Shown piece after piece: positions 1 through 36,845 of a stretch of 36,845 nt of DNA (within the stretch, counting starts at the first letter, position 1; each line of letters opens with the position of its first letter). The stretch is from a virus. Below the pieces are notes generated by a model. That model worked only from the letters and a program-made list of their open reading frames with translations, ran no database searches and was not told the DNA's origin. Made by a program: the position numbers and the translations under genes. The DNA lies in IMG/VR virus record IMGVR_UViG_3300045988_085549, positions 1 through 36,845 of that record; one strand, 5' to 3'.

Positions 1-55
1 ATATTCTCTAACTTCTTTTATTATGTTTTCTTTTTGTTGTAATTTAGTTTGTAAA
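1..55. repeat. Terminal exact direct repeat, copy 1 (identical to 36791..36845)
   Basis: nt 1-55 (atattctctaacttc...aatttagtttgtaaa) recur base-for-base as the last 55 nt of the window. A minus-strand ORF stays in frame across the junction. Confidence 0.95.
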
Positions 56-2368: not shown

Positions 2369-3086
2369 TTAGAAACTTGTTTATAGCTTCTTCCTCCTTT
2401 TCTTGTCTAGTTTTATAAATTCTTTTAGGTTTATCAGTAAACTTTTTATCTTCTTCCTGAGCTTGTGCTAGTGTTCTAATGTTATTCTTATCCCACTCAT
2501 AAAGTATTTTATCAATATAACTAATATTATAAATATTTTTTAATACAGCCTTAGTAGTAGCATATTTAAGCATTTCTAAAGGAAATTTATACTTATTCCA
2601 ATTTGTAATAGTTTCATATTCAATAGGATTTAAAGTTCTTCCAAAGTTTTGTTCTATAATGCTATATATATCTACTTCTACTATACTATTCTTATCTATA
2701 CTAATCTTACCTATACTATCCTTACCTGTGTATCCATCTTGTATACATTTTGTATACATCTTGTTTTTTTCTATTTCTAATTGTTTTTTTTCTTCAGTAT
2801 AAATAGTTGGAGTGTATCTGTCATTTTGTATATAATTATGTATTTTCCAATGTTTAATCACTACTATTCCTGTATCAAAAGGAATAATGAATTGTTTTGT
2901 AGCTAATACTTTAAAATCGTCTTCACTACATCCTACCATTTTCATTATTTTTTTAGGGCTTGATACGAACCCGTCATCATCTGCTCTCATACATAGTTCA
3001 TAATATAATAATCTGCTTGTTTGTGGCATTTCCATAAATAAATCAGTATCTATTATATCTAAACTAAACATACGTCTTTTTGCCAT
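2355..3086 (-). CDS. Phage replisome organiser with C-terminal DnaD/DnaB_2-like domain
   Basis: 243 aa. The N-terminus MAKRRMFSLDIIDTDLFMEMPQTSRLLYYELCMRADDDGF is typical of the replisome-organiser N domain. The C-terminus (FGRTLNPIEYETITNW...YIDKILYEWDKNNIRT) is DnaD-like. Confidence 0.7.
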   Translation of the reverse strand: MAKRRMFSLDIIDTDLFMEMPQTSRLLYYELCMRADDDGFVSSPKKIMKMVGCSEDDFKVLATKQFIIPFDTGIVVIKHWKIHNYIQNDRYTPTIYTEEKKQLEIEKNKMYTKCIQDGYTGKDSIGKISIDKNSIVEVDIYSIIEQNFGRTLNPIEYETITNWNKYKFPLEMLKYATTKAVLKNIYNISYIDKILYEWDKNNIRTLAQAQEEDKKFTDKPKRIYKTRQEKEEEAINKFLSEDD

Positions 3087-3087
3087 C

Positions 3088-3237
3088 TTATTTCTCCTTT
3101 GGTACTAATCTTATTGTTTCATCTTCTAAATACTCTAAATAAAATTCTCTACCATATTTGTCTATTAAGAATTTTGGTATAATAATTCTATTTTTTTCTT
3201 TATCAGCTCTTTTAAAAAATCTAAATAATACTTTCAT
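3088..3237 (-). CDS. AbrB/SpoVT-like small DNA-binding protein (putative)
   Basis: 49 aa counted from the ATG at 3237 (RBS AAGGAGGG). NRIIIPKFLIDKYGREFYLEYLEDETIRLVPKEK fits the swapped-hairpin AbrB/MazE pattern. The longer track ORF (to 3285) would run through its own promoter. Confidence 0.45.
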   Translation of the reverse strand: MKVLFRFFKRADKEKNRIIIPKFLIDKYGREFYLEYLEDETIRLVPKEK

Positions 3238-3256
3238 TTTATCCCTCCTTATATTG

Positions 3257-3285
3257 AATATACCACAAAAGGTGGTACTTTGCAA
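3257..3285 (-). promoter_or_regulatory. Sigma-A-type promoter (TTGCAA, 17 nt, TGG-TATATT)
   Basis: Minus strand reads TTGCAAagtaccaccttttgtggTATATT. It shares the TTTTGTGGTATA box with the promoter at 10388..10416. Confidence 0.5.
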
Positions 3286-3293
3286 GTAAAAAA

Positions 3294-3977
3294 TTATATT
3301 TTTTCAATTCTGTGTTTGGAAATTTCAAAATATTTTTTATCTACTTCTATACCTATGAAATTTCTATTTGCATTTTGTTCTTTATTCATTTCCAATACTG
3401 CGACTCCAGTTGTTCCACTACCCATAAACGGGTCAATTATTAAACAATTATCAGGTAATATGCCTATTATATTTTTCATAACTTCAAGTGGCATTTGACA
3501 AGGATGTTCTGTTTTTTCTTTACTAACATTTTTTACTTGGTTTATATTCCACCAATCATAAAGTTTTGCACCTTTACAACCTCTAGCAATTCTTTCTTTA
3601 ATTCTTTTATCGTTAGGGTTTTTATAAGGCTGTCTCACTTTTGACATATCAGGTTTAATATCGAAAAAAGCTATATCTCTATGTTGCTTTCCTGTATTTG
3701 AATTATATACCCAACTTATAACTTTTTCAGGGAATTTACCTATTTGAAAAGCTAATTTATATAAATTTTCAGGATAGTGTATAACTACGCTTGGTAAATC
3801 ATGAAAATAAAAATCTAACATCTCATAATATTCATCTTCATCCATATTATCTTTATAACTATTGTATTTATAATTTATATTGAAAGGTGGATCACTTACT
3901 AATATAATATTTTTATCGTGATTTTCATTTATTATTTTATAAAATATATCTAAACTATTTTCATTGTATAACTTCAT
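3294..3977 (-). CDS. DNA methyltransferase (N6-adenine/N4-cytosine type, beta class), orphan
   Basis: 227 aa. Catalytic motif IV (LVSDPPFNINY) lies near the N-terminus. SAM-binding motif I (IIDPFMGSGTTGVA) lies near the C-terminus. No adjacent nuclease gene is recognisable. Confidence 0.8.
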   Translation of the reverse strand: MKLYNENSLDIFYKIINENHDKNIILVSDPPFNINYKYNSYKDNMDEDEYYEMLDFYFHDLPSVVIHYPENLYKLAFQIGKFPEKVISWVYNSNTGKQHRDIAFFDIKPDMSKVRQPYKNPNDKRIKERIARGCKGAKLYDWWNINQVKNVSKEKTEHPCQMPLEVMKNIIGILPDNCLIIDPFMGSGTTGVAVLEMNKEQNANRNFIGIEVDKKYFEISKHRIEKI

Positions 3978-4383
3978 TATTTCCCTCCATTAAGCTTTTA
4001 ATCATTTCTTCTTGATACTCTTCTAATTTTAATGTGTATTGACCATCTAATTTAGCTTTATTTTTTATTTTTGAATATGTTTTTAATATCCTCATAGCTC
4101 TTTTATATAGGTGTGATAAGGTGGAATAAACCTCGTCTTGATTAGTTCCAATGTAATATCCACCTTTATTACCAGCCTCACTACATATTATTAAATTATA
4201 TTCATCTCTTATTTTTTTTATGTAATCTCTAAATGTTTTATTGTCAGTTATATTAAACTCTTTCATAATTATAGCTGATTTTACTCGTTTTTCGTATCCT
4301 AGGGCGTTGTTTATTAAATATTCGTATATTTTATTGGTTAACTCGTTTCGTTGCTCTAAAGGGCTTAAAATATCGTTTTTCAT
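3961..4383 (-). CDS. Hypothetical protein (possible winged-helix DNA binder)
   Basis: 140 aa. RBS AAGGAGG. ATGA overlap with the sigma-factor stop. No confident family assignment. Confidence 0.6.
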   Translation of the reverse strand: MKNDILSPLEQRNELTNKIYEYLINNALGYEKRVKSAIIMKEFNITDNKTFRDYIKKIRDEYNLIICSEAGNKGGYYIGTNQDEVYSTLSHLYKRAMRILKTYSKIKNKAKLDGQYTLKLEEYQEEMIKSLMEGNNEVIQ

Positions 4384-4934
4384 ATATCCTCCTTTTTTAC
4401 CATTTCTTTTAATTTTCTCATACCTGCTTTTCTCATCCTAGAAGTTCTTGTATGGCTTAATCCCATTTCTTTTGCTATTTCAGTTAAGTTCTTTTCTTTA
4501 CATCCTATTCCATAATACATTTTTATTACTTTTACATATCTTTCATTTTTTATTTTATTTAATAATCTTACAACTTGTTCATATCTTAATTTTTGTATAA
4601 CTTCTTTTTCAATATCTACATTATTTGGTATTACTTCATATAAATTTACATTGTCATTAAAATCATCATCTAGTGAAACTTCTCCATAAGGATTATATCT
4701 TCCTTTAGTAGTTTTGAATTTAAAACACTTCATTATCTCGTGTTTTATACAAATAGTTAAATATGTACTTTCTGCTATTCCTTTACTTTTATCATAGGTT
4801 TTAGCCCCTTTTATCAGCCCATCCATACCATAATCATAATATTCTTGAAATTCATTTTCATTTCTAGGTTTTATGTTTAATTGTTTCATAGCCATTATTA
4901 TTAAACCTACATTGTTTAATACTAAATCATCCAT
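4380..4934 (-). CDS. Sigma-70 family RNA polymerase sigma factor (regions 2 and 4)
   Basis: 184 aa. Region 2-like YDYGMDGLIKGAKTYDKSKGIAESTYLTICIKHEI. Region 4 HTH LTEIAKEMGLSHTRTSRMRKAGMRKLKE. Confidence 0.8.
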   Translation of the reverse strand: MDDLVLNNVGLIIMAMKQLNIKPRNENEFQEYYDYGMDGLIKGAKTYDKSKGIAESTYLTICIKHEIMKCFKFKTTKGRYNPYGEVSLDDDFNDNVNLYEVIPNNVDIEKEVIQKLRYEQVVRLLNKIKNERYVKVIKMYYGIGCKEKNLTEIAKEMGLSHTRTSRMRKAGMRKLKEMVKKEDI

Positions 4935-5098
4935 TATCTCCTCCTAGATAATTTTATATTATTTTGTTTACAATATTCCTGACACTCTTTTTTACTGGTT
5001 GAATCAAATATTCCTATACATCCAAATGATCGTTCTCTCTCGCTATTCTTCCAAACTACCCATTTACCATTGCTTTTTTCTAAAGTATAGTAAATCAT
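4934..5098 (-). CDS. Small hypothetical protein (54 aa, not in the ORF track)
   Basis: ATG at 5098 in an ATGA overlap with the upstream stop. Translation: MIYYTLEKSNGKWVVWKNSERERSFGCIGIFDSTSKKECQEYCKQNNIKLSRRR. Its stop overlaps the sigma-factor ATG (TAATG), and the last codons carry that gene's RBS (AGGAGGAG). Confidence 0.45.
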   Translation of the reverse strand: MIYYTLEKSNGKWVVWKNSERERSFGCIGIFDSTSKKECQEYCKQNNIKLSRRR

Positions 5099-5310
5099 AT
5101 TTCTTCCTCCACTCTTATTGGTCTATAATGTTCTTCTATATCTTGTTCTAAATCTTCTATTTTTTCTTCTGCATAAGCTCTTTCATCATCTACCTCACAT
5201 AATTTGTCTAATATTTCTTCTACTGATACAAAATCTTTTAACTTAAATAAACATTTTATTTGATTATTTTCTTCTCTTATATCTATTAAAACTTTTTCCA
5301 TATTATTCAC
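5095..5310 (-). CDS. Highly acidic small hypothetical protein
   Basis: 71 aa, 23 of them Asp/Glu (hand count). RBS AGGAGTG. Confidence 0.6.
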   Translation of the reverse strand: MNNMEKVLIDIREENNQIKCLFKLKDFVSVEEILDKLCEVDDERAYAEEKIEDLEQDIEEHYRPIRVEEEI

Positions 5311-5312
5311 TC

Positions 5313-5660
5313 CTATTCTTTTGGCATTTCATAAACATAAGTTGATGGTTCTTTAATATCATATTCATCAGGTTCTCTATAAATTGTACCATCACAAGTT
5401 TCTACAATTGGTTTTCCTACTTTTAATAATACCTTTTGTGGTTTTAATATATTTTGTATTTCATCTAATACTTCTAATGCTCTTTCTTTTGTTTTATATG
5501 TTCCTAATTTAACATGATAATCATTTATAAATTCACATATACAATAACCATCTATATCTCCTATTTTATCCATGAAACCATATTTACCTTTATATGCTAA
5601 TCCAAGATTATGCACTACTAATAAATCCTCTTTATCTTGACTTCTAATCCATAATTCCAT
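5313..5660 (-). CDS. Hypothetical protein
   Basis: 115 aa. RBS GAGGAG. Abuts the neighbouring genes. No recognised motifs. Confidence 0.65.
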   Translation of the reverse strand: MELWIRSQDKEDLLVVHNLGLAYKGKYGFMDKIGDIDGYCICEFINDYHVKLGTYKTKERALEVLDEIQNILKPQKVLLKVGKPIVETCDGTIYREPDEYDIKEPSTYVYEMPKE

Positions 5661-5661
5661 A

Positions 5662-5826
5662 TTAATTCTCCTCTATAATTATTTTTTTACCTTTTGCATA
5701 TACTTTTATTTGTTTATCTTCTAATTCTGCTTGTTTTACTATTTCTTTTGATATTTTTATACCATAACAATTAAGTTTTTTTTCTCCTTTTGCTGTTCTA
5801 TAATAGTTTTTTGATAGTCTTGCCAC
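5662..5826 (-). CDS. AbrB/SpoVT-like small protein (54 aa, GTG start, not in the ORF track)
   Basis: GGAGGTGGTAAAGTG start context. Translation: VARLSKNYYRTAKGEKKLNCYGIKISKEIVKQAELEDKQIKVYAKGKKIIIEEN. The GIKISKEIVKQAEL...IKVYAKGKKIII pattern resembles AbrB-type swapped hairpins. Confidence 0.4.
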   Translation of the reverse strand: MARLSKNYYRTAKGEKKLNCYGIKISKEIVKQAELEDKQIKVYAKGKKIIIEEN

Positions 5827-9695: not shown

Positions 9696-10268
9696 CTAAT
9701 TATTGTCATCTGCATATTTCCATATATAACCACCTGCTGTTTTTCTTTTCCCTCTACATACAGCAGATATACTTGAATTATCTATATTTAAAACTTTTTT
9801 TGCATCTAATATGTATTCAAAGCTATTGATATAATTACCATTTAAATCATATTGTTTTACTTTTCTTTTAAATCTCGGCTTTTCTAAGCCATTTTTATAA
9901 GCGTGTATTTGATTTTCACTATTAGTACACCACTCTAAATTACAAACTCTATTATCAGTTTTTATTCCGTTAATATGATTTATTTGTGGTTTATTTTCAG
10001 GATTAGGTATAAATGCTTGTGCTACTAATCTGTGAATTTTTTCACTTTTTAATTTCCCATCTTTATGTAAAGTATAATTAAGATAATTTTTTTTATCACG
10101 AACTAATTTTATAATAATAACTTTTTCTTTTTTTATTAGACTTTTTAATCTTCCATAATTAGATATTTGATATAAACCTTCATATCCTTTTATATCTTTC
10201 CATATTTCATTTTTTAAATTTGTTAAATCAAACCACTTTTCACTATTTACTTCTACTTGTTCAAACAT
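9696..10268 (-). CDS. HNH homing endonuclease (NUMOD4 + HNH_3 + C-terminal DNA-binding module)
   Basis: 190 aa. WKDIKGYEGLYQISNYGRLKS is NUMOD4-like. INHINGIKTDNRVCNLEWCTNSENQIHA is the HNH core. SISAVCRGKRKTAGGYIWKY is the typical C-terminal motif. Confidence 0.85.
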   Translation of the reverse strand: MFEQVEVNSEKWFDLTNLKNEIWKDIKGYEGLYQISNYGRLKSLIKKEKVIIIKLVRDKKNYLNYTLHKDGKLKSEKIHRLVAQAFIPNPENKPQINHINGIKTDNRVCNLEWCTNSENQIHAYKNGLEKPRFKRKVKQYDLNGNYINSFEYILDAKKVLNIDNSSISAVCRGKRKTAGGYIWKYADDNN

Positions 10269-27362: not shown

Positions 27363-28694
27363 TTATCCTCCTAATATCATTAATTGTTTGTTCCATACTT
27401 CTATACCATAATTAAATGCGTCAAGTATATCTATGTCAGAAGTTCCATCATCAAGCCAACGATCATCTTCTGCTTCATCGTCTTGTGTAGCTTCTTGCAA
27501 AGCCTTGACTATTATATCAGTATGTTCCCTCTTAAATTTTAGTCTATCTTGCATTAAAAGTACACCTATTAAGTGTATTCTGTCTTTAATTTCTATTTTT
27601 ATACTTGCTTTTACTGGTATATGTAAGCCCTCATTTATTAAACATTGTTGTAAAAAGTCTATAAGTTCAGGTTCAGCTCCATCAGCAAATATATAATCTA
27701 TTCTACCATAATGTTTTAATACCCATTTTACATGAGCTATAAAACCATCTTTTAACTGCTTTAACTTTTTACCTATTCCATCAGTTTCCATTATTTCTTC
27801 CTGTGTAGAGCAGTCTACTTCATCACTTCTTATTACTTGTATGTTTCTATAACTTCTTGATATTATCTGACTACAAAAAGCGTGTTTAGAGCCATTTTTA
27901 CCAAAATCTACTCCTGTTGTTATTAATCCTAACATAGTATCATCAGTTAAGTATCTTTCTTTGTTGTTTGCTATTAAATCAAATAACACTCCAGCATTTG
28001 CCATACGAATACCTAATATATCTCTTTTATACCATATTGAGTTCTTATCGTAAGTTTCCAATGTCTTTTTAAGTTTTATATCAGTAATAGCCATATTATC
28101 AAATATATTAAAGTGTTCATAGTTATAACCATAATTAGGATTTTCTCTTTGCTTTTTCTCGTGAAAGTCTAATATTTCAGTATAATACCAATGAGCTGGT
28201 GGTTTAGGGTTTAAATCGTGAAATATCTTTCTATCACTTGACGATATAGTTCTATCCATTACTTCTTTTAAGAACTTTTGGTGGCACTCGTTAGCCTCTG
28301 TTATATAAGCCATACCATAAGTATTACCTTTAATGTATTTCTCGTCTCCATCTTTAGCTCCACCACTTATAAGAAGTATTTTTTCTTTACCATCTGCACA
28401 TCTTACATACAAGCAGTCTTTGTTCTTGTATTTTCCCTCTCTATATCTACCACTAAAATAATTAGTTATTCCATATCCATCACAGTCTATTATATTTAAC
28501 TTAACATTTGCTATACTTACTCCTGCTAGTAAATGAAGTCTATCAGGATGGTTTTCTAATAGAATACAAAAACAAAGGGCATTAAGTACGTTTTTTCCTC
28601 CTCTTTTCCCACCCTCTGCTACATTAAACCATGAACTTTTACATTTGTTTAAATAGTTTATTTGTTTTATATTAAATGGAGCATAATTATTCAT
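27363..28694 (-). CDS. terL: Terminase large subunit (PBSX/Terminase_3-like)
   Basis: 443 aa. N-terminal ATPase region (FNVAEGGKRGGKN Walker-A-like; LLISGGAKDG...AYITEANE). C-terminal nuclease-like region. Overlaps the TerS stop. Confidence 0.85.
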   Translation of the reverse strand: MNNYAPFNIKQINYLNKCKSSWFNVAEGGKRGGKNVLNALCFCILLENHPDRLHLLAGVSIANVKLNIIDCDGYGITNYFSGRYREGKYKNKDCLYVRCADGKEKILLISGGAKDGDEKYIKGNTYGMAYITEANECHQKFLKEVMDRTISSSDRKIFHDLNPKPPAHWYYTEILDFHEKKQRENPNYGYNYEHFNIFDNMAITDIKLKKTLETYDKNSIWYKRDILGIRMANAGVLFDLIANNKERYLTDDTMLGLITTGVDFGKNGSKHAFCSQIISRSYRNIQVIRSDEVDCSTQEEIMETDGIGKKLKQLKDGFIAHVKWVLKHYGRIDYIFADGAEPELIDFLQQCLINEGLHIPVKASIKIEIKDRIHLIGVLLMQDRLKFKREHTDIIVKALQEATQDDEAEDDRWLDDGTSDIDILDAFNYGIEVWNKQLMILGG

Positions 28695-29085
28695 CTATAT
28701 TATCCTCCGTTCTTGTTTTTACTGGATTATTTATTAAATAAGCTATATTACTTATATTTCGATTTACTTGTGTGTTATCTATTTCATCAGGATATTTTTC
28801 TTTTTGATTCAAGTGCTGTTTTCCTAACCATATCTGCATAGTTACATTTCCTTTTTCTGCACTTTTCATTTGCCATCTTCTTAATGAAATATTGCCTTTA
28901 CTACATTTCTTTTTATATACGTCCGAAAATGTTTCATTATAAGTTTTCTTACACCATGTTTCTACTGTATCTTCGCTTACATCAAAAAACTCTGATATTT
29001 CTATTAAGGTACACCACATACCACATAATCTTTCAAATTGTTCTTTATTAATTTTGTCTTGTGCTGGTGTATCTCCTTTCTTCAT
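28687..29085 (-). CDS. terS: Terminase small subunit (HTH type)
   Basis: 132 aa. FERLCGMWCTLIEISEFFDVSEDTVETWCKK is an HTH. LRRWQMKSAEKGNVTMQIWLGKQHLNQ is typical of small terminases. Lies upstream of TerL. Confidence 0.7.
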   Translation of the reverse strand: MKKGDTPAQDKINKEQFERLCGMWCTLIEISEFFDVSEDTVETWCKKTYNETFSDVYKKKCSKGNISLRRWQMKSAEKGNVTMQIWLGKQHLNQKEKYPDEIDNTQVNRNISNIAYLINNPVKTRTEDNIDE

Positions 29086-29106: not shown

Positions 29107-29904
29107 TTAATATAATCCCCACTCTGCAAATTTTTCAAATCCACCTTGTTCTTTAATATATTGTCTAGCTATTTCTACTATTTCTGAATAAGGTTTACCA
29201 TCTATTGTGTCATCTCCTATTGCACAGCATAATTCTACTGGTTTACCTGTTTCTTGTGCTTTTAAGAATGCATATATATTTACTGATACATCAGCCTTTG
29301 ATAAATCTTTACCATGCAAACCTCCACCTGTTACACTTTGAGCCATATCACTACCTAACTTTCTATTAGTAGCTCCTGTATCTACATCGGTGCCACCTGT
29401 CCAATATCCTAGTGGATTAAATATATAATCTTCACTATCTCCTATTAATTTTTTTAAATCGTGATCTGTTGCATTGCTTTGACAACATATGAACTTATCA
29501 TCAGTTAATATGTATTTACCATCACTTTCAAACTCATCATATATTTTTCTTGCTAATTCACTTATCTTCTTTTCATTATCAGTTAGTGGTACGCCTTTGA
29601 ATATTCCATTATCTCCACATCTTGTTTCTTCTGCTTGATTTTTAGCAAGTTCTGTGTCTTGTTCTACATCGTTTAATCTTGTTAATATATCTGTTCTACC
29701 CGTAATTCTGCATACTATATCAAATACTTCATCTATTGTAATTTTACAGCTACTTTCTATTATAACATCACATTCTTTATGTCCTATTAACACTTCTACT
29801 GCTATTTTAGGATTTTCTTCTTTTGTGTATGCTAAGTCAACTATTGCACCTGCTATTCTATCTGCCACCTTATCTGGGTGGCTTGGATTTACTTTTTCTA
29901 TCAT
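29107..29904 (-). CDS. metK: Truncated S-adenosylmethionine synthetase (MetK-family) protein
   Basis: 265 aa. SHPDKVADRIAGAIVD matches MetK GHPDKIADQISDAVLD. CGDNGIFKG matches GDQGLMFGY. NPLGYWTGGTDVDTGATNRKLGSD...GGGLHGKDLSKADVS matches NPTGRF..GGP.GD.GLTGRKIIVDTYGG..HGGGAFSGKDPSKVDRS. The start lies 1 nt after the MTase stop. Confidence 0.8.
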   Translation of the reverse strand: MIEKVNPSHPDKVADRIAGAIVDLAYTKEENPKIAVEVLIGHKECDVIIESSCKITIDEVFDIVCRITGRTDILTRLNDVEQDTELAKNQAEETRCGDNGIFKGVPLTDNEKKISELARKIYDEFESDGKYILTDDKFICCQSNATDHDLKKLIGDSEDYIFNPLGYWTGGTDVDTGATNRKLGSDMAQSVTGGGLHGKDLSKADVSVNIYAFLKAQETGKPVELCCAIGDDTIDGKPYSEIVEIARQYIKEQGGFEKFAEWGLY

Positions 29905-29905
29905 A

Positions 29906-31087
29906 TTATTCTCCTTCTATCTTTACTGCCTTTTCTCCTGTAAAGTTTTCCCATCTTTGTATGATTACATCAATATAATGTGGGTCTAGTTCCATCATAT
30001 AACATTTTCTATTTAATTGTTCACAAGCAATAAGTGTTGAACCACTACCACCAAATATATCTAAAACAACATTATTTTCATTGCTACTATTTTTTATTGC
30101 TCTTGCTGGAATAGTAACAGGTTTTTGAGTAGGGTGTTCATAACTACTAACTTTTTCTCTATCTTCATCCCAAACATCCATTTCATCGTGATTTGCATTC
30201 CATATATTTAATTTATCACCTTTTACACCAAATAAAATTAATTCATGTTTTGTTCTATAATAAGTTCCTAAACCAAAATAATTTTTATTCCATACAATCA
30301 TCGATTTTTGATTAAACGCCTCTTTAAAGCATTTTTCTAATTGTGAGTAATGTTTCCAATCCATGCACTCATAAACTGATGCACCATCTTTAATATTTAT
30401 ATAAATAGTTGAATTCAAATCAATTAAAAAATCATCAAACGCTTCATGTGACATATTATCATTTAATATCCCGCCCCAGGGCTTTCTTCTATCTTTATCA
30501 ACTCTTGATGAATAATCAGCATTATATGGTGGGTCGGTAAATACCATATCAGCCTTAACACCATTCATTAATTTATTAACATCTTCTTCTTTTGTACTAT
30601 CTCCACACATTAATCTATGTTTTCCTAATTGATATATATCTCCTAATTTTGCTTTTGGTTCTTCTGGAACATCAGGAACTTCATCTTCTATTATTTCTTG
30701 TTCCTCTTCAATATCAAAATCTAAATCAAATCCAAAATCTGACATATCAATATTATCAAAGTTCATTAATTCATCGTTTAATATATCCAAATCAAAATCA
30801 CTATTCATAGTTAATTTATTATGAGCTAGTGTATAAGCCTTACGTTCTTCATCGGTTAAATGGTCTAAACGGATAATAGGAACTTCTTTATAGCCTAATT
30901 GTTTACAAGCAATTAATCTACCATGTCCCTCTACTATTTCATCTTTCCATATTCCAATTGGATCGTCCATTCCAAATTGCTCTATTGATTTTTTAATTTG
31001 TTCAATTTGTTCTTCAGGGTGCAACTTAGCATTATTTTTATATGGTTTAATGCTATTAATATCCACATATTCAATTTTTAATTCCAT
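29906..31087 (-). CDS. ParB-like nuclease domain fused to an N6/N4 DNA methyltransferase (orphan)
   Basis: 393 aa. N-terminal ParB-N-like region (IKPYKNNAKLHPEEQIEQIKKSIEQFGMDDPIGIW...VEGHGRLIA). MTase motif IV MVFTDPPYNADY and motif I VLDIFGGSGSTLIA. Confidence 0.85.
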   Translation of the reverse strand: MELKIEYVDINSIKPYKNNAKLHPEEQIEQIKKSIEQFGMDDPIGIWKDEIVEGHGRLIACKQLGYKEVPIIRLDHLTDEERKAYTLAHNKLTMNSDFDLDILNDELMNFDNIDMSDFGFDLDFDIEEEQEIIEDEVPDVPEEPKAKLGDIYQLGKHRLMCGDSTKEEDVNKLMNGVKADMVFTDPPYNADYSSRVDKDRRKPWGGILNDNMSHEAFDDFLIDLNSTIYINIKDGASVYECMDWKHYSQLEKCFKEAFNQKSMIVWNKNYFGLGTYYRTKHELILFGVKGDKLNIWNANHDEMDVWDEDREKVSSYEHPTQKPVTIPARAIKNSSNENNVVLDIFGGSGSTLIACEQLNRKCYMMELDPHYIDVIIQRWENFTGEKAVKIEGE

Positions 31088-31124
31088 ATTTTCTCCTTAT
31101 AAATACCATAGAATAGATATACGA

Positions 31125-31153
31125 ATTGTACTAGGTAGAAGTTTCCTGTACAA
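31125..31153 (-). promoter_or_regulatory. Candidate promoter (TTGTAC, 17 nt, TACAAT) for the MTase-MetK-late operon
   Basis: Minus strand reads TTGTACaggaaacttctacctagTACAAT, 38-66 nt upstream of the ATG at 31087. Confidence 0.4.
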
Positions 31154-31259
31154 TAATCAACCAACCACGCATGGTACTTCTAATATCGTTGATATGCATC
31201 TATATACCTACTCTATGCTACTCACAAGGAATAGCTAATCATTGTTTGACAGGTACTAC

Positions 31260-36709: not shown

Positions 36710-36845
36710 CTATTCTCCTTTATCTAATATTCTTAAAATTATCTTTTCGTTATCTTCTAATGAACCATATTCTTTTTCGTTTTCCTCTATATATTCTCTA
36801 ACTTCTTTTATTATGTTTTCTTTTTGTTGTAATTTAGTTTGTAAA
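36710..36845 (-). CDS. C-terminal part of the junction-spanning coiled-coil gene (36791-36845 duplicate nt 1-55)
   Basis: Reading down from 36790: IEENEKEYGSLEDNEKIILRILDKGE, then TAG at 36710-36712. In frame with 234..1 across the junction. Confidence 0.7.
   Translation of the reverse strand, partial: LQTKLQQKENIIKEVREYIEENEKEYGSLEDNEKIILRILDKGE
36791..36845. repeat. Terminal exact direct repeat, copy 2 (identical to 1..55)
   Basis: See copy 1. Confidence 0.95.

What the first reader, a model, noticed from the sequence alone, without database searches (positions are those of the whole stretch)
29107..31087. ParB-methyltransferase translationally coupled to a 265-aa mini-MetK: a self-supplied SAM anti-restriction module?
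**Arrangement.** The first two genes after the non-coding region are a ParB-N-domain/DPPY methyltransferase and, 1 nt after its stop, a MetK-family protein. The MetK RBS is encoded by the methyltransferase's last codons (GAAGGAGAATAA).

**MetK features.** It keeps the hallmark motifs: HPDK; GD-x-G; the T/N-R-K...D loop; and GGG-x-H/F-x-GKD-x-SK-x-D. At 265 aa it is about two-thirds the length of bacterial MetK (about 385-400 aa), so all three domains are trimmed.

**Interpretation.** Phages are well known to destroy SAM (T3-type SAM lyases) to disable SAM-dependent restriction and BREX. Here a phage with two methyltransferases appears to make SAM. It may boost self-methylation before packaging, because these genes sit directly upstream of terS and terL. 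It may counter host SAM limitation. Or it may act as a decoy or poison subunit for host MetK.
Basis: partly seen in the sequence, partly recalled or inferred. Interest (0 to 1): 0.7.

Follow-up and report, generated by a model that had tools for sequence, protein, structure and literature searches.

The report
Compact phage SAM synthetase beside methyltransferase
A human-gut phage has a one-third-smaller version of the enzyme that makes the methyl donor SAM, with all its catalytic residues kept, in one tight operon with its DNA methyltransferase and packaging genes. It most likely lets the phage methylate its own DNA without relying on the host's feedback-controlled SAM supply.

Summary
On the minus strand, a ParB-N/N6_N4 DNA methyltransferase (29906-31087) stops 1 nt before a 265-aa MetK-like gene (29107-29904). 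Its GAAGGAG ribosome-binding site lies inside the methyltransferase's last codons, and terS and terL follow directly.

**Fold and residues.** The 265-aa protein models with very high confidence as a methionine adenosyltransferase (MAT) fold. Every catalytic-residue equivalent is 97-100% conserved in 187 homologues.

**Size and linkage of the family.** It belongs to a large ~262-aa family (PHROG 1569, labelled "unknown function") spread through phages of several bacterial phyla. In 73 of 80 viral loci the gene lies within 2.5 kb of ParB-domain genes and/or SAM-consuming DNA-modification genes (N6/N4 or C5 methyltransferases, radical-SAM enzymes). ParB or methyltransferase genes abut it in either order, usually 0-21 nt apart. 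Some relatives add an MTA/SAH-nucleosidase-like gene and an adenine phosphoribosyltransferase.

**Chromosomal copies.** Bacterial chromosomal copies about 70% identical sit behind SAM-I or SAM-I/IV riboswitches (17 of 80 genome loci). No phage copy does.

**Conclusion.** The protein is almost certainly a real, compact SAM synthetase. In the phage it is uncoupled from SAM feedback and tied to DNA methylation. The anti-restriction purpose is inferred, not shown. The decoy or poison idea is unlikely. Phage metK genes are already widely annotated, so this is a new variant of a known kind.

The parts
29906..31087 (-). ParB-N domain fused to a beta-class N6/N4 DNA methyltransferase (393 aa). It has DPPY at residues 186-189 and then FGGSG, so it is probably an N6-adenine enzyme.
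   Evidence: PF01555 1e-32. ParB_N scores 23.9 bits, below the cut-off of 26.3. phrog_498 1.9e-133 and phrog_620 6e-45. Motifs read from the translation.
29911..29917 (-). GAAGGAG ribosome-binding site for the MetK-like gene, inside the last codons of the methyltransferase. The TAA stop (29906-29908) and ATG (29902-29904) are separated by 1 nt.
   Evidence: Read directly from the sequence. Tight spacing recurs in relatives: the median methyltransferase stop to MetK ATG gap is 12 nt, and 19 of 40 gaps are 4 nt or less or overlap.
29107..29904 (-). Compact (265-aa) methionine adenosyltransferase / SAM synthetase, a member of PHROG 1569.
   Evidence: PF00438 37.7 bits. phrog_1569 2.5e-67. hhalign to E. 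coli MetK probability 98.4%. AlphaFold2 pLDDT 95.9. Foldseek hits MATs only. Catalytic equivalents 96.8-100% conserved. Riboswitch-controlled cellular orthologues.
28687..29085 (-). Small terminase subunit, 21 nt downstream of the MetK-like gene.
   Evidence: phrog_309 1.8e-07 and phrog_606 4.5e-04.
27363..28694 (-). Large terminase subunit, overlapping terS by 8 nt.
   Evidence: PF03237 and PF04466. phrog_2 2.8e-26.
31088..31259 (.). Non-coding stretch upstream of the methyltransferase. It presumably holds the promoter of the methyltransferase-MetK-terminase operon, but no promoter was established.
   Evidence: No sizeable minus-strand ORF here. Promoter-like matches are at chance level, 19 found against 19.8 expected. 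No Rfam element.
3294..3977 (-). Second, stand-alone beta-class N6/N4 DNA methyltransferase (227 aa, DPPF then FMGSG). It is a second SAM consumer in the same phage.
   Evidence: PF01555 4.5e-22. Translation.

Best explanation
The 265-aa gene encodes a working but stripped-down SAM synthetase (methionine adenosyltransferase).

**What the protein keeps and loses.** It keeps the three beta-alpha-beta-beta-alpha-beta domains and every residue that binds ATP, Mg2+/K+ and methionine. It has lost hairpin tips, loop segments and the last ~45 residues of canonical MetK.

**How it is placed.** In this phage it is made from the same transcript as the ParB-domain adenine methyltransferase, and probably by coupled translation. 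It sits immediately ahead of terS and terL. Unlike its chromosomal orthologues, it has no SAM riboswitch.

**Proposed mechanism.**
1. During lytic growth the enzyme converts host ATP and methionine to SAM, regardless of the host's SAM feedback.
2. The SAM feeds the phage's two DNA methyltransferases, so that newly replicated DNA is methylated before it is packaged.
3. The methylation protects the DNA from restriction in the next host.

**Shown versus inferred.** Shown here by computation: homology, fold, residue conservation, gene linkage, and riboswitch control of the orthologues. Inferred: enzymatic activity, the timing, the flow of SAM to the methyltransferases, and the anti-restriction benefit.
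For: 1. **Fold and active site.**
 - The AlphaFold2 model has pLDDT 95.9 and pTM 0.94.
 - The top 50 Foldseek PDB hits are all MATs, with E about 1e-17 and TM 0.69-0.77.
 - hhalign to E. coli MetK gives probability 98.4%.
 - Equivalents of E. coli H14, D16, K17, E42, E55, Q98, D118, D163, K165, D238, R244, K245, K265, K269 and D271 are 96.8-100% conserved in 187 unique homologues. The mean over all positions is 66%.
2. **Cellular orthologues are SAM-regulated.**
 - 17 of 80 bacterial genome loci carry a SAM-I (RF00162) or SAM-I/IV (RF01725) riboswitch upstream on the same strand. All are above Rfam gathering scores.
 - L086 has a complete promoter-aptamer-terminator-ATG leader.
 - These copies are 65-73% identical to the window protein and as close to phage copies as to each other.
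 - Some sit between mutL and rplU, or next to hrcA-grpE-dnaK or rnc.
3. **Phage copies are unregulated and tied to SAM consumers.**
 - No riboswitch was found in the window or in 84 viral loci.
 - 73 of 80 IMG/VR loci have ParB and/or N6N4 methyltransferase, C5 methyltransferase or radical-SAM genes within 2.5 kb.
 - ParB/methyltransferase genes abut the gene in both orders, with median gaps of 12 and 5 nt.
 - The radical-SAM neighbours are confirmed by Pfam and NCBIfam.
4. **Related phages add more of the methyl cycle.** They insert an MTA/SAH-nucleosidase-like protein (Foldseek top hits mostly MTANs plus related nucleoside phosphorylases; weak NF005522 hit). They also insert an adenine phosphoribosyltransferase (PDB 5.7e-22; NF002636 above its cut-off). 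Both lie between the methyltransferase and this gene.
5. **Strong purifying selection.** The only nucleotide-level match of window 12000-36845 (about two-thirds of the genome; 1-11999 was not queried) to GenBank phages lies inside this gene.
6. **Precedents.**
 - A SAM-donor role was proposed for Orf29 of phi1207.3 (PMC4260502).
 - Phage CmoA supplies Cx-SAM to CmoX (PMC12783734).
Against: - There is no biochemical or genetic test of this family.
- Pfam's central and C-terminal MetK domains are not detected. TIGR01034 scores 39.9 bits against a cut-off of 309.
- The D163/K165 equivalents (D128/K130) are assigned from topology and conservation. hhalign, MAFFT and BLASTP each aligned this segment differently.
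- The methyltransferases' target sites are unknown, so the real SAM demand is unknown.
- No promoter was identified and the timing of expression is unknown.
- 7 of 80 viral and 11 of 80 genome loci show neither a SAM consumer nor a riboswitch nearby.
- A prophage metK of another lineage affects host aggregation and biofilm in lysogens. A host-directed role is therefore possible (PMC8223999).
Confidence: 0.62

Rival explanations
1. It is an active SAM synthetase, but its job is general metabolic reprogramming of the host or lysogen (polyamines, AI-2, cell-envelope or other methylations) rather than supplying the phage's DNA methyltransferases.
For: - Deleting and re-adding a prophage metK of a different lineage changed aggregation, chain length and glycocalyx in S. 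agalactiae (PMC8223999).
- Phage K00789 genes are usually counted as general auxiliary metabolic genes (PMC13644194, PMC11283538).
- A minority of loci lack a nearby SAM consumer.
- Chromosomal copies serve the cell.
Against: - The gene abuts ParB, methyltransferase or radical-SAM genes in most viral loci, in both orders and with near-zero gaps.
- In this window it sits in the packaging operon rather than in a lysogeny or moron position.
- Some relatives add SAH-nucleosidase-like and APRT genes between the methyltransferase and MetK, which fits methyl-transfer turnover.
Confidence: 0.15
2. It is an active SAM synthetase that acts as a counter-defence. It refills SAM that a host defence or a competing element (for example a SAM lyase) has destroyed, by analogy with phage NAD+ reconstitution.
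For: - The phage copies lack the feedback control present on cellular copies.
- SAM is a known battleground: T3 SAM lyase acts against type I R-M and BREX (bioRxiv 10.1101/2023.02.27.530186, listed).
Against: - No SAM-depleting defence is known to me in these hosts, and none was found in the loci examined.
- The consistent partner is a SAM consumer encoded by the phage itself, not an anti-defence gene.
Confidence: 0.08
3. It makes a SAM analogue or other sulfonium or nucleoside cofactor for an unusual DNA modification, rather than SAM itself.
For: - It is only about 20% identical to canonical MetK, with trimmed loops.
- In some relatives it sits with radical-SAM, TET-associated glycosyltransferase, DUF1848 and PLP-enzyme genes typical of hypermodification clusters.
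- Phages can supply modified SAM, as with CmoA.
Against: - The methionine- and adenine/triphosphate-binding equivalents (E55, Q98, D118, D238 and the P-loop) are conserved.
- The partner methyltransferases have ordinary DPPY/FxGxG SAM motifs.
- Orthologues are controlled by riboswitches that sense SAM itself.
Confidence: 0.06
4. It is a non-catalytic MetK mimic. It would be a decoy or poison subunit that binds host MetK or a MetK-targeting factor and lowers host SAM to disable SAM-dependent restriction.
For: MAT active sites form at subunit interfaces, so a truncated subunit could in principle poison a heteromer. T3 SAM lyase does inhibit MetK by binding it (PMC8406200, listed).
Against: - Catalytic residues are 97-100% conserved.
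- The protein is kept at about 65-75% identity in phages and prophages of Bacillota, Bacteroidota, Actinomycetota and others, whose MetK interfaces differ.
- It co-occurs with SAM-requiring phage enzymes.
- It is stably chromosomal and riboswitch-controlled in bacteria.
- One homologue carries an intein-like insertion in the P-loop. This was judged by eye only, and Pfam did not recognise it.
Confidence: 0.04

Closest known systems
Canonical bacterial MetK / methionine adenosyltransferase (E. coli MetK, 384 aa; PDB 1fug, 7ll3)
   Same: - It has the same three-domain fold.
- It has the same catalytic residues and motifs: HPDK, GDxG, D-x-K, D...RK, and GGG..GKD.SK.D.
- Cellular copies are under SAM riboswitches, as metK is in Firmicutes (the S-box regulon is from my own knowledge).
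   Different: - It is about 120 residues shorter, with hairpins and loops trimmed in all three domains.
- The C-terminal ~45 residues are replaced by a conserved GGFEKFAEWGL tail.
- It is only about 17-22% identical.
- It fails the TIGR01034 cut-off and the Pfam central and C-terminal models.
- Its oligomeric state is unknown.
Canonical-type prophage MetK of Streptococcus phages phi1207.3 (Orf29, 353 aa) and 12/111phiA
   Same: - Both are phage-borne SAM synthetase homologues that are somewhat shortened.
- Both are located near a ParB-domain DNA methylase, an HNH "endonuclease" and the terminase genes.
- A SAM-donor role for the phage methylases has already been proposed.
- 12/111phiA metK lies 1 nt after the upstream gene (PMC4260502, PMC8223999).
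   Different: - It is a different lineage, only 24% identical to the window protein.
- All three Pfam MetK domains are detected in Orf29.
- The 12/111phiA sequence in the paper's supplement belongs to that lineage, not to the 262-aa family.
Phage CmoA-CmoX (Cx-SAM synthase plus DNA carboxymethyltransferase, Synechococcus phage S-B43)
   Same: A phage encodes the enzyme that makes the cofactor next to the DNA transferase that uses it (PMC12783734).
   Different: CmoA converts SAM to carboxy-SAM and is unrelated in fold. In the window the cofactor made is predicted to be SAM itself.
T3-type SAM lyase
   Same: It is a phage enzyme that acts on the SAM pool in the contest with SAM-dependent host defences.
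   Different: It follows the opposite strategy: it destroys SAM and inhibits MetK. The protein is unrelated. The window phage carries two SAM-dependent methyltransferases and so needs SAM.
Prophage beta-class adenine methyltransferases such as M.EcoGII
   Same: They are prophage-encoded PF01555-type enzymes with DPPY then FxGxG, silent in the lysogen. M.EcoGII can methylate nearly every adenine, which would demand a great deal of SAM (PMC5778455).
   Different: M.EcoGII has no ParB domain. Its relationship to the window methyltransferase and the specificity of the latter were not tested.

Membership tests
Methionine adenosyltransferase (MetK/MAT) | Three-domain beta-alpha-beta-beta-alpha-beta fold | tested here: met
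   The AlphaFold2 model has pLDDT 95.9, and its secondary-structure order fits three repeats. The top 50 Foldseek PDB hits are all MATs, with E about 1e-17 and TMq 0.69-0.77.
Methionine adenosyltransferase (MetK/MAT) | Catalytic and ligand-binding residues (E. coli H14, D16, K17, E42, E55, Q98, D118, D163, K165, D238, R244, K245, K265, K269, D271) | tested here: met
   Equivalents are present in the window protein and 96.8-100% conserved in 187 homologues. The D163/K165 equivalents (D128/K130) rest on topology and conservation, because sequence aligners disagree there.
Methionine adenosyltransferase (MetK/MAT) | Curated sequence models: Pfam N, central and C-terminal domains; TIGR01034 equivalog | tested here: not met
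   Only PF00438 (N domain) passes, at 37.7 against 33.1 bits. PF02772 and PF02773 are not reported. TIGR01034 scores 39.9 bits against a cut-off of 309.4. It is therefore a divergent subfamily, not an equivalog.
Methionine adenosyltransferase (MetK/MAT) | Makes SAM from ATP and L-methionine and hydrolyses tripolyphosphate | not testable with these tools
   This needs an enzyme assay or complementation. The indirect support is SAM-riboswitch control of orthologues about 70% identical.
PHROG 1569 (phage family of unknown function) | Full-length match to the family profile | tested here: met
   E 2.5e-67, with residues 1-264 against profile positions 4-336 of 346.
phi1207.3 Orf29 / 12/111phiA-type prophage MetK | Close sequence relationship to that lineage | tested here: not met
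   24% identity by BLASTP. The N-terminal signature differs: MIEKVNPSHPDKVADRIAG in the window against SEQVS.GHPDK.CDQISD in that lineage.
Beta-class N6/N4 DNA methyltransferase (PF01555) | Catalytic (D/S)PP(Y/F) motif before the FxGxG SAM-binding motif | tested here: met
   PF01555 1e-32. DPPY then FGGSG. The second enzyme has DPPF then FMGSG. The methylated base and the target site were not tested.
ParB/Srx N-terminal domain | Match to the ParB_N model, including the GxxR-type motif | tested here: inconclusive
   Pfam ParB_N scores 23.9 bits, below the cut-off of 26.3. The protein matches PHROG 620 at 6e-45 and several other ParB-like PHROGs. EGHGRLIA is present in the translation. NTP binding and nuclease activity were not tested.

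The most novel reading that the evidence does not exclude
The ~262-aa family is the smallest natural SAM synthetase and moves freely between phages and bacteria.
- In some small-genome gut Bacilli and Clostridia, the riboswitch-controlled copy may be the cell's only MAT.
- In phages the same enzyme has been stripped of feedback control and joined to ParB-methyltransferase or radical-SAM genes, and sometimes to a mini MTA/SAH nucleosidase and an APRT.
- Together these would form a portable methyl-cycle cassette that lets the phage modify its DNA densely whatever the state of the host's SAM homeostasis.
Probability: 0.35. Interest if true: 0.75.

Novelty: new variant of a known kind. Interest (0 to 1): 0.6.

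Why it matters
**A very common gene of untested function.** Phage-borne metK (K00789) is among the most abundant "auxiliary metabolic genes" reported in gut and anaerobic-digester viromes, yet its function has not been tested.

**What this work adds.**
- Much of that signal may be a distinct compact MAT, which PHROGs calls "unknown function" and GenBank mostly calls "hypothetical".
- The work gives a concrete, testable role: SAM supply free of feedback for phage DNA modification. This is the mirror image of the T3 SAM-lyase strategy.

**If the enzyme is active.**
- A MAT about 30% smaller than the canonical enzyme would define the minimal catalytic core of an essential enzyme.
- It would be useful for making SAM and SAM analogues.
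- Riboswitch-controlled chromosomal copies would be a case of a phage-type enzyme serving as, or replacing, a core metabolic enzyme.

Tried and rejected
- **Sequence mapping of D163/K165.** hhalign, MAFFT and BLASTP via phi1207.3 Orf29 gave three different placements. I settled on D128/K130 from strand topology and 98% conservation. K137 is only 41% conserved.
- **Viral structure library (BFVD).** No match was found.
- **Promoter and terminator scan around the operon.** Matches were at chance level.
- **Rfam scan of the window.** Nothing was found, so there is no riboswitch on the phage copy.
- **My recollection that M.EcoGII carries a ParB domain.** The paper says it has no extra domain, so I dropped the claim.
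- **Renard 2021 "truncated prophage MetK".** I first thought it was this family. The supplement shows it belongs to the phi1207.3 lineage.
- **Intein in homologue P0122.** It is plausible by eye (Cys1, TxxH, LAGLIDADG-like...GN|C) but Pfam does not recognise it. I use it only as a side note.
- **MTA/SAH-nucleosidase guess for L010:5029-5511.** There was no Pfam, PHROG or PDB sequence hit and only a weak NCBIfam hit. It was then supported by fold.
- **Literature searches.** No biochemical study of this family was found.
Full report
**1. What is in the window.** The window is a 36,845-bp contig with 27.9% G+C. It has a 55-bp terminal direct repeat, so it is probably a complete, circularly assembled phage genome. 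The identical protein is found on human-gut metagenome contigs.

All relevant genes are on the minus strand:
- Upstream lie recombination and replication genes: a Holliday-junction resolvase, a NinB-like protein and a repressor-like protein.
- A ~170-nt non-coding stretch follows.
- Next comes a 393-aa ParB-N/N6_N4 DNA methyltransferase (29906-31087).
- One nucleotide after its TAA stop is the ATG of a 265-aa ORF (29107-29904).
- terS follows 21 nt later (28687-29085), and terL overlaps terS by 8 nt (27363-28694). Portal and head genes follow.
- GAAGGAG sits at 29911-29917, inside the last codons of the methyltransferase.

A second, stand-alone beta-class methyltransferase lies at 3294-3977.

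**2. The 265-aa protein is a compact MAT.** By sequence it is only weakly MetK-like:
- Pfam detects just the N-terminal domain, at 37.7 bits against a cut-off of 33.1.
- TIGR01034 scores far below its cut-off.
- PDB sequence hits are all S-adenosylmethionine synthases, but they align only around HPDK and the GGG..GKD..SK.D loop.

Profile and structure comparisons are unambiguous:
- hhalign of a 37-member family alignment against E. coli MetK gives probability 98.4% over nearly the whole protein. The E. coli sequence was verified identical to 7ll3_A.
- The AlphaFold2 model has pLDDT 95.9 and pTM 0.94.
- Its 50 best Foldseek matches in the PDB are all MATs.

The model keeps the three beta-alpha-beta-beta-alpha-beta units. 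What is missing relative to E. coli MetK is hairpin tips and loop segments in each domain and the last ~45 residues. In their place is a short, very conserved GGFEKFAEWGL tail.

In 187 unique homologues (36-86% identical to the query), the equivalents of the E. coli catalytic and ligand-binding residues are 96.8-100% conserved. The mean over all positions is 66%.

One caveat applies. Three aligners place the D163/K165 segment differently. I assign D128-G129-K130 because it starts the first strand after the domain-2 helix, as in MetK, and is 98% conserved. The alternative K137 is 41% conserved.

**3. The family.**
- It is PHROG 1569, labelled "unknown function".
- More than 8,000 near-full-length homologues of 263-272 aa exist in the large protein collection. 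IMG names them S-adenosylmethionine synthetase.
- At 50% clustering, 203 representatives score E <= 1e-30. Some carry lineage-specific insertions.
- In GenBank phages it occurs in 26 records: Streptococcus Javan prophages, phages of Oscillospiraceae, Acutalibacteraceae and Anaeroplasmataceae, and Gardnerella phage vB_Gva_AB1. Nearly all are annotated "hypothetical".
- The only nucleotide-level match of window 12000-36845 to GenBank phages lies inside this gene, at 77% to a Streptococcus phage. That indicates unusually strong conservation. The first third of the genome (1-11999) was not queried.

**4. Gene neighbourhoods in mobile contexts.** I examined 80 IMG/VR loci and 80 bacterial genome loci.
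- An N6_N4 methyltransferase of the same type, with or without the ParB domain, abuts the gene on the same strand in most viral loci, in either order.
- The median methyltransferase-stop to MetK-ATG gap is 12 nt (n = 40). Nineteen of these gaps are 4 nt or less or overlap.
- The median MetK-stop to ParB-gene gap is 5 nt (n = 65).
- Where that methyltransferase is absent, the neighbours vary. They include DNA-type radical-SAM enzymes (the PA0069/Rv2578c/SPL-like family), stand-alone ParB_N proteins and TET-associated glycosyltransferases. They also include DUF1848, a ParB_N-Methyltransf_23 fusion, C5 methyltransferases and a PLP enzyme.
- Overall, 73 of 80 viral loci have a ParB and/or SAM-consuming gene within 2.5 kb.

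In close relatives (L010, L013, L035, L054), two more genes sit between the methyltransferase and the MetK-like gene:
- An adenine phosphoribosyltransferase (PDB 5.7e-22; NF002636 126.8 bits against a cut-off of 125).
- A 144-160-aa protein with no Pfam, PHROG or PDB sequence hit. Its model (pLDDT 80.8) matches mainly MTA/SAH nucleosidases, plus a few related nucleoside phosphorylases, and it keeps a DME...SD pattern.

The set is then SAM synthesis, removal of the inhibitory product SAH, and salvage of the released adenine. The common denominator of the family's partners is consumption of SAM.

**5. Chromosomal copies are under SAM riboswitches.** Some genome loci are not prophages.
- The gene lies between mutL and rplU-ysxB-rpmA in two Bacilli MAGs.
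- It lies next to hrcA-grpE-dnaK in two Clostridia MAGs.
- It lies next to rnc and smc in another MAG.
- It lies beside guaA in Prevotella.

Rfam, at gathering thresholds, finds riboswitches upstream on the same strand:
- A SAM-I riboswitch sits upstream of the gene in nine loci. In eight of them it ends 62-317 nt before the start codon. In L162 it lies 2.7 kb upstream, and that locus also has ParB and methyltransferase neighbours.
- A SAM-I/IV riboswitch sits in eight Bacteroidota loci. In a Bacteroides fragilis bin it ends 2 nt before the ATG. In Prevotella it is at the head of a short operon ending in this gene.
- L086 shows the complete leader: a promoter-like site, the aptamer, an intrinsic terminator, then the ATG.

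Covariance models built from these hits find nothing in the window or in 84 viral and phage loci. Full Rfam is also negative on the window and on 11 viral loci.

The two contexts are almost mutually exclusive. Sixteen riboswitch loci have no ParB or methyltransferase. One hundred and twenty-five ParB/SAM-consumer loci have no riboswitch. One ambiguous locus has both.

Riboswitch-linked and phage-linked proteins are about equally related, at ~70-77% identity, so a difference in function is unlikely. Cells therefore shut this gene off when SAM is plentiful, as expected for a SAM synthetase. Phages have removed that control.

**6. Mechanism proposed.**
- Shown by computation: the protein has a MAT fold with an intact active site. 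It is co-oriented with the ParB-methyltransferase and the terminase genes, and tightly spaced with them. Its family is linked to SAM consumers in mobile elements and to SAM sensors in chromosomes.
- Inferred: it makes SAM during lytic growth without feedback. This SAM feeds the two adenine-type methyltransferases (DPPY and DPPF) acting on replicated DNA before packaging. The benefit is protection from restriction in the next host.

A rough argument for why supply could matter uses my own figures. The genome has about 26,500 A·T pairs. A bacterial cell at ~0.2 mM SAM holds roughly 10^5 molecules. Methylases with short or degenerate sites, across a burst of 50-100 genomes, could therefore approach or exceed the pool, and SAH would inhibit them. 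The target sites are unknown, so this remains a hypothesis.

The role of the ParB-N domain (DNA loading, NTP switch or nuclease) was not addressed.

**7. Rivals.**
- A general host-directed metabolic role is the main alternative. It has some experimental support for a different prophage MetK lineage (PMC8223999).
- SAM replenishment as a counter-defence and synthesis of a SAM analogue are possible but have no specific support.
- The decoy or poison idea is the least likely, for three reasons. Catalytic residues are conserved. The protein is conserved across hosts of different phyla. It is stably chromosomal and riboswitch-controlled in bacteria.

**8. Comparison with what is known.**
- Phage metK is widely annotated (K00789). 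It is present in 58.9% of Heliusvirales genomes and is the top auxiliary gene in digester viromes, but it is untested.
- A SAM-donor role for neighbouring phage methylases was suggested in 2014 for phi1207.3 Orf29. That protein and the 12/111phiA MetK are canonical-type and only 24% identical to the window protein.
- Phage CmoA-CmoX is a proven case of a phage supplying the cofactor for its own DNA transferase.
- I found no paper that describes the ~262-aa family, its riboswitch-controlled cellular copies or the nucleosidase/APRT companions. The library is incomplete, so this is not proof of absence.

I rate the finding as a new variant of a known kind.

**9. Verdict.** My confidence that the protein is an active SAM synthetase is about 0.8. 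My confidence in the full proposed mechanism is about 0.6. Interest is 0.6.

Noticed in passing
L086:4819-5001; also L098, L103, L117, L131, L154, L157, L158 (SAM-I) and L089, L090, L092, L094-L097, L099 (SAM-I/IV): Chromosomal copies of the compact MetK are preceded by SAM riboswitches of two classes. L086 has a full promoter-aptamer-terminator leader. L089, L090 and L095 appear to have two aptamers in tandem.
   Followed up: yes
L086:3053-6850, L087:287-2441, L135 and L139:5001-9295, L085:4974-10031: The compact MetK sits among housekeeping genes: mutL and rplU/rpmA, hrcA-grpE-dnaK, and rnc/smc. The genomes are uncultured gut Bacilli and Clostridia MAGs. It may be their only MAT. The absence of canonical metK could not be checked.
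   Followed up: partly
L010:5029-5511 and L054:1865-2299 (family P0271-P0390): A 144-160-aa phage protein family of about 720 members has no Pfam, PHROG or PDB sequence match. Its predicted fold matches MTA/SAH nucleosidases, so it may be a truncated "mini-MTAN". It lies between the ParB-methyltransferase and the compact MetK.
   Followed up: yes
L010:5498-5998: A phage-encoded adenine phosphoribosyltransferase lies directly upstream of the compact MetK. This suggests salvage of adenine released from SAH, MTA or 5'-deoxyadenosine.
   Followed up: yes
L007:4433-6004, L021:1171-3982, L022:3916-7650, L028:2581-5241, L033:4567-5941: In an alternative cassette, a stand-alone ParB_N protein, one or two DNA-type radical-SAM enzymes (PA0069/Rv2578c-like) and often a TET-associated glycosyltransferase flank the compact MetK instead of a methyltransferase. 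This is probably a DNA hypermodification cluster.
   Followed up: partly
L047:5061-9631, L106:4160-8651: Another cassette runs DUF1848, compact MetK, two ParB_N proteins, then a ParB_N fused to a class-I methyltransferase (Methyltransf_23).
   Followed up: partly
L089, L094 and L097: about 3020-5789: In Prevotella a SAM-I/IV riboswitch heads an operon of a NADAR-like protein (PF08719, below its cut-off), an unannotated 284-351-aa protein and the compact MetK, next to guaA. The function of the two upstream genes is unknown.
   Followed up: partly
Protein P0122 (582 aa), residues about 197-520: A homologue carries a ~320-aa insertion exactly inside the GGGL^HGKD loop. It has intein-like features (Cys at its start, TxxH, a LAGLIDADG-like motif, ...GN followed by Cys). 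Pfam did not recognise an intein.
   Followed up: partly
L006:5577-6350, L015:785-1660: A PLP-dependent enzyme of the ACC-deaminase/D-cysteine-desulfhydrase family lies next to the compact MetK in some phages. Its link to SAM chemistry is unexplained.
   Followed up: no
window 29117-29422: This stretch, inside the MetK-like gene, is the only part of window 12000-36845 with nucleotide similarity to any GenBank phage (77% to Streptococcus phage Javan117).
   Followed up: partly
window 1-55 and 36791-36845: A 55-bp exact terminal direct repeat suggests the contig is a circular assembly of a complete ~36.8-kb genome.
   Followed up: partly
window 4380-4934 (-), 9696-10268 (-): There is a sigma-70-like protein (regions 2 and 4) that could be the phage's late-gene regulator. 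There is also an HNH/NUMOD homing-endonuclease-like gene.
   Followed up: no
L135:4883-4954, L139:4882-4953: A tRNA gene lies immediately upstream of the chromosomal compact MetK in two Clostridia MAGs. It could be a remnant of an integration site.
   Followed up: no
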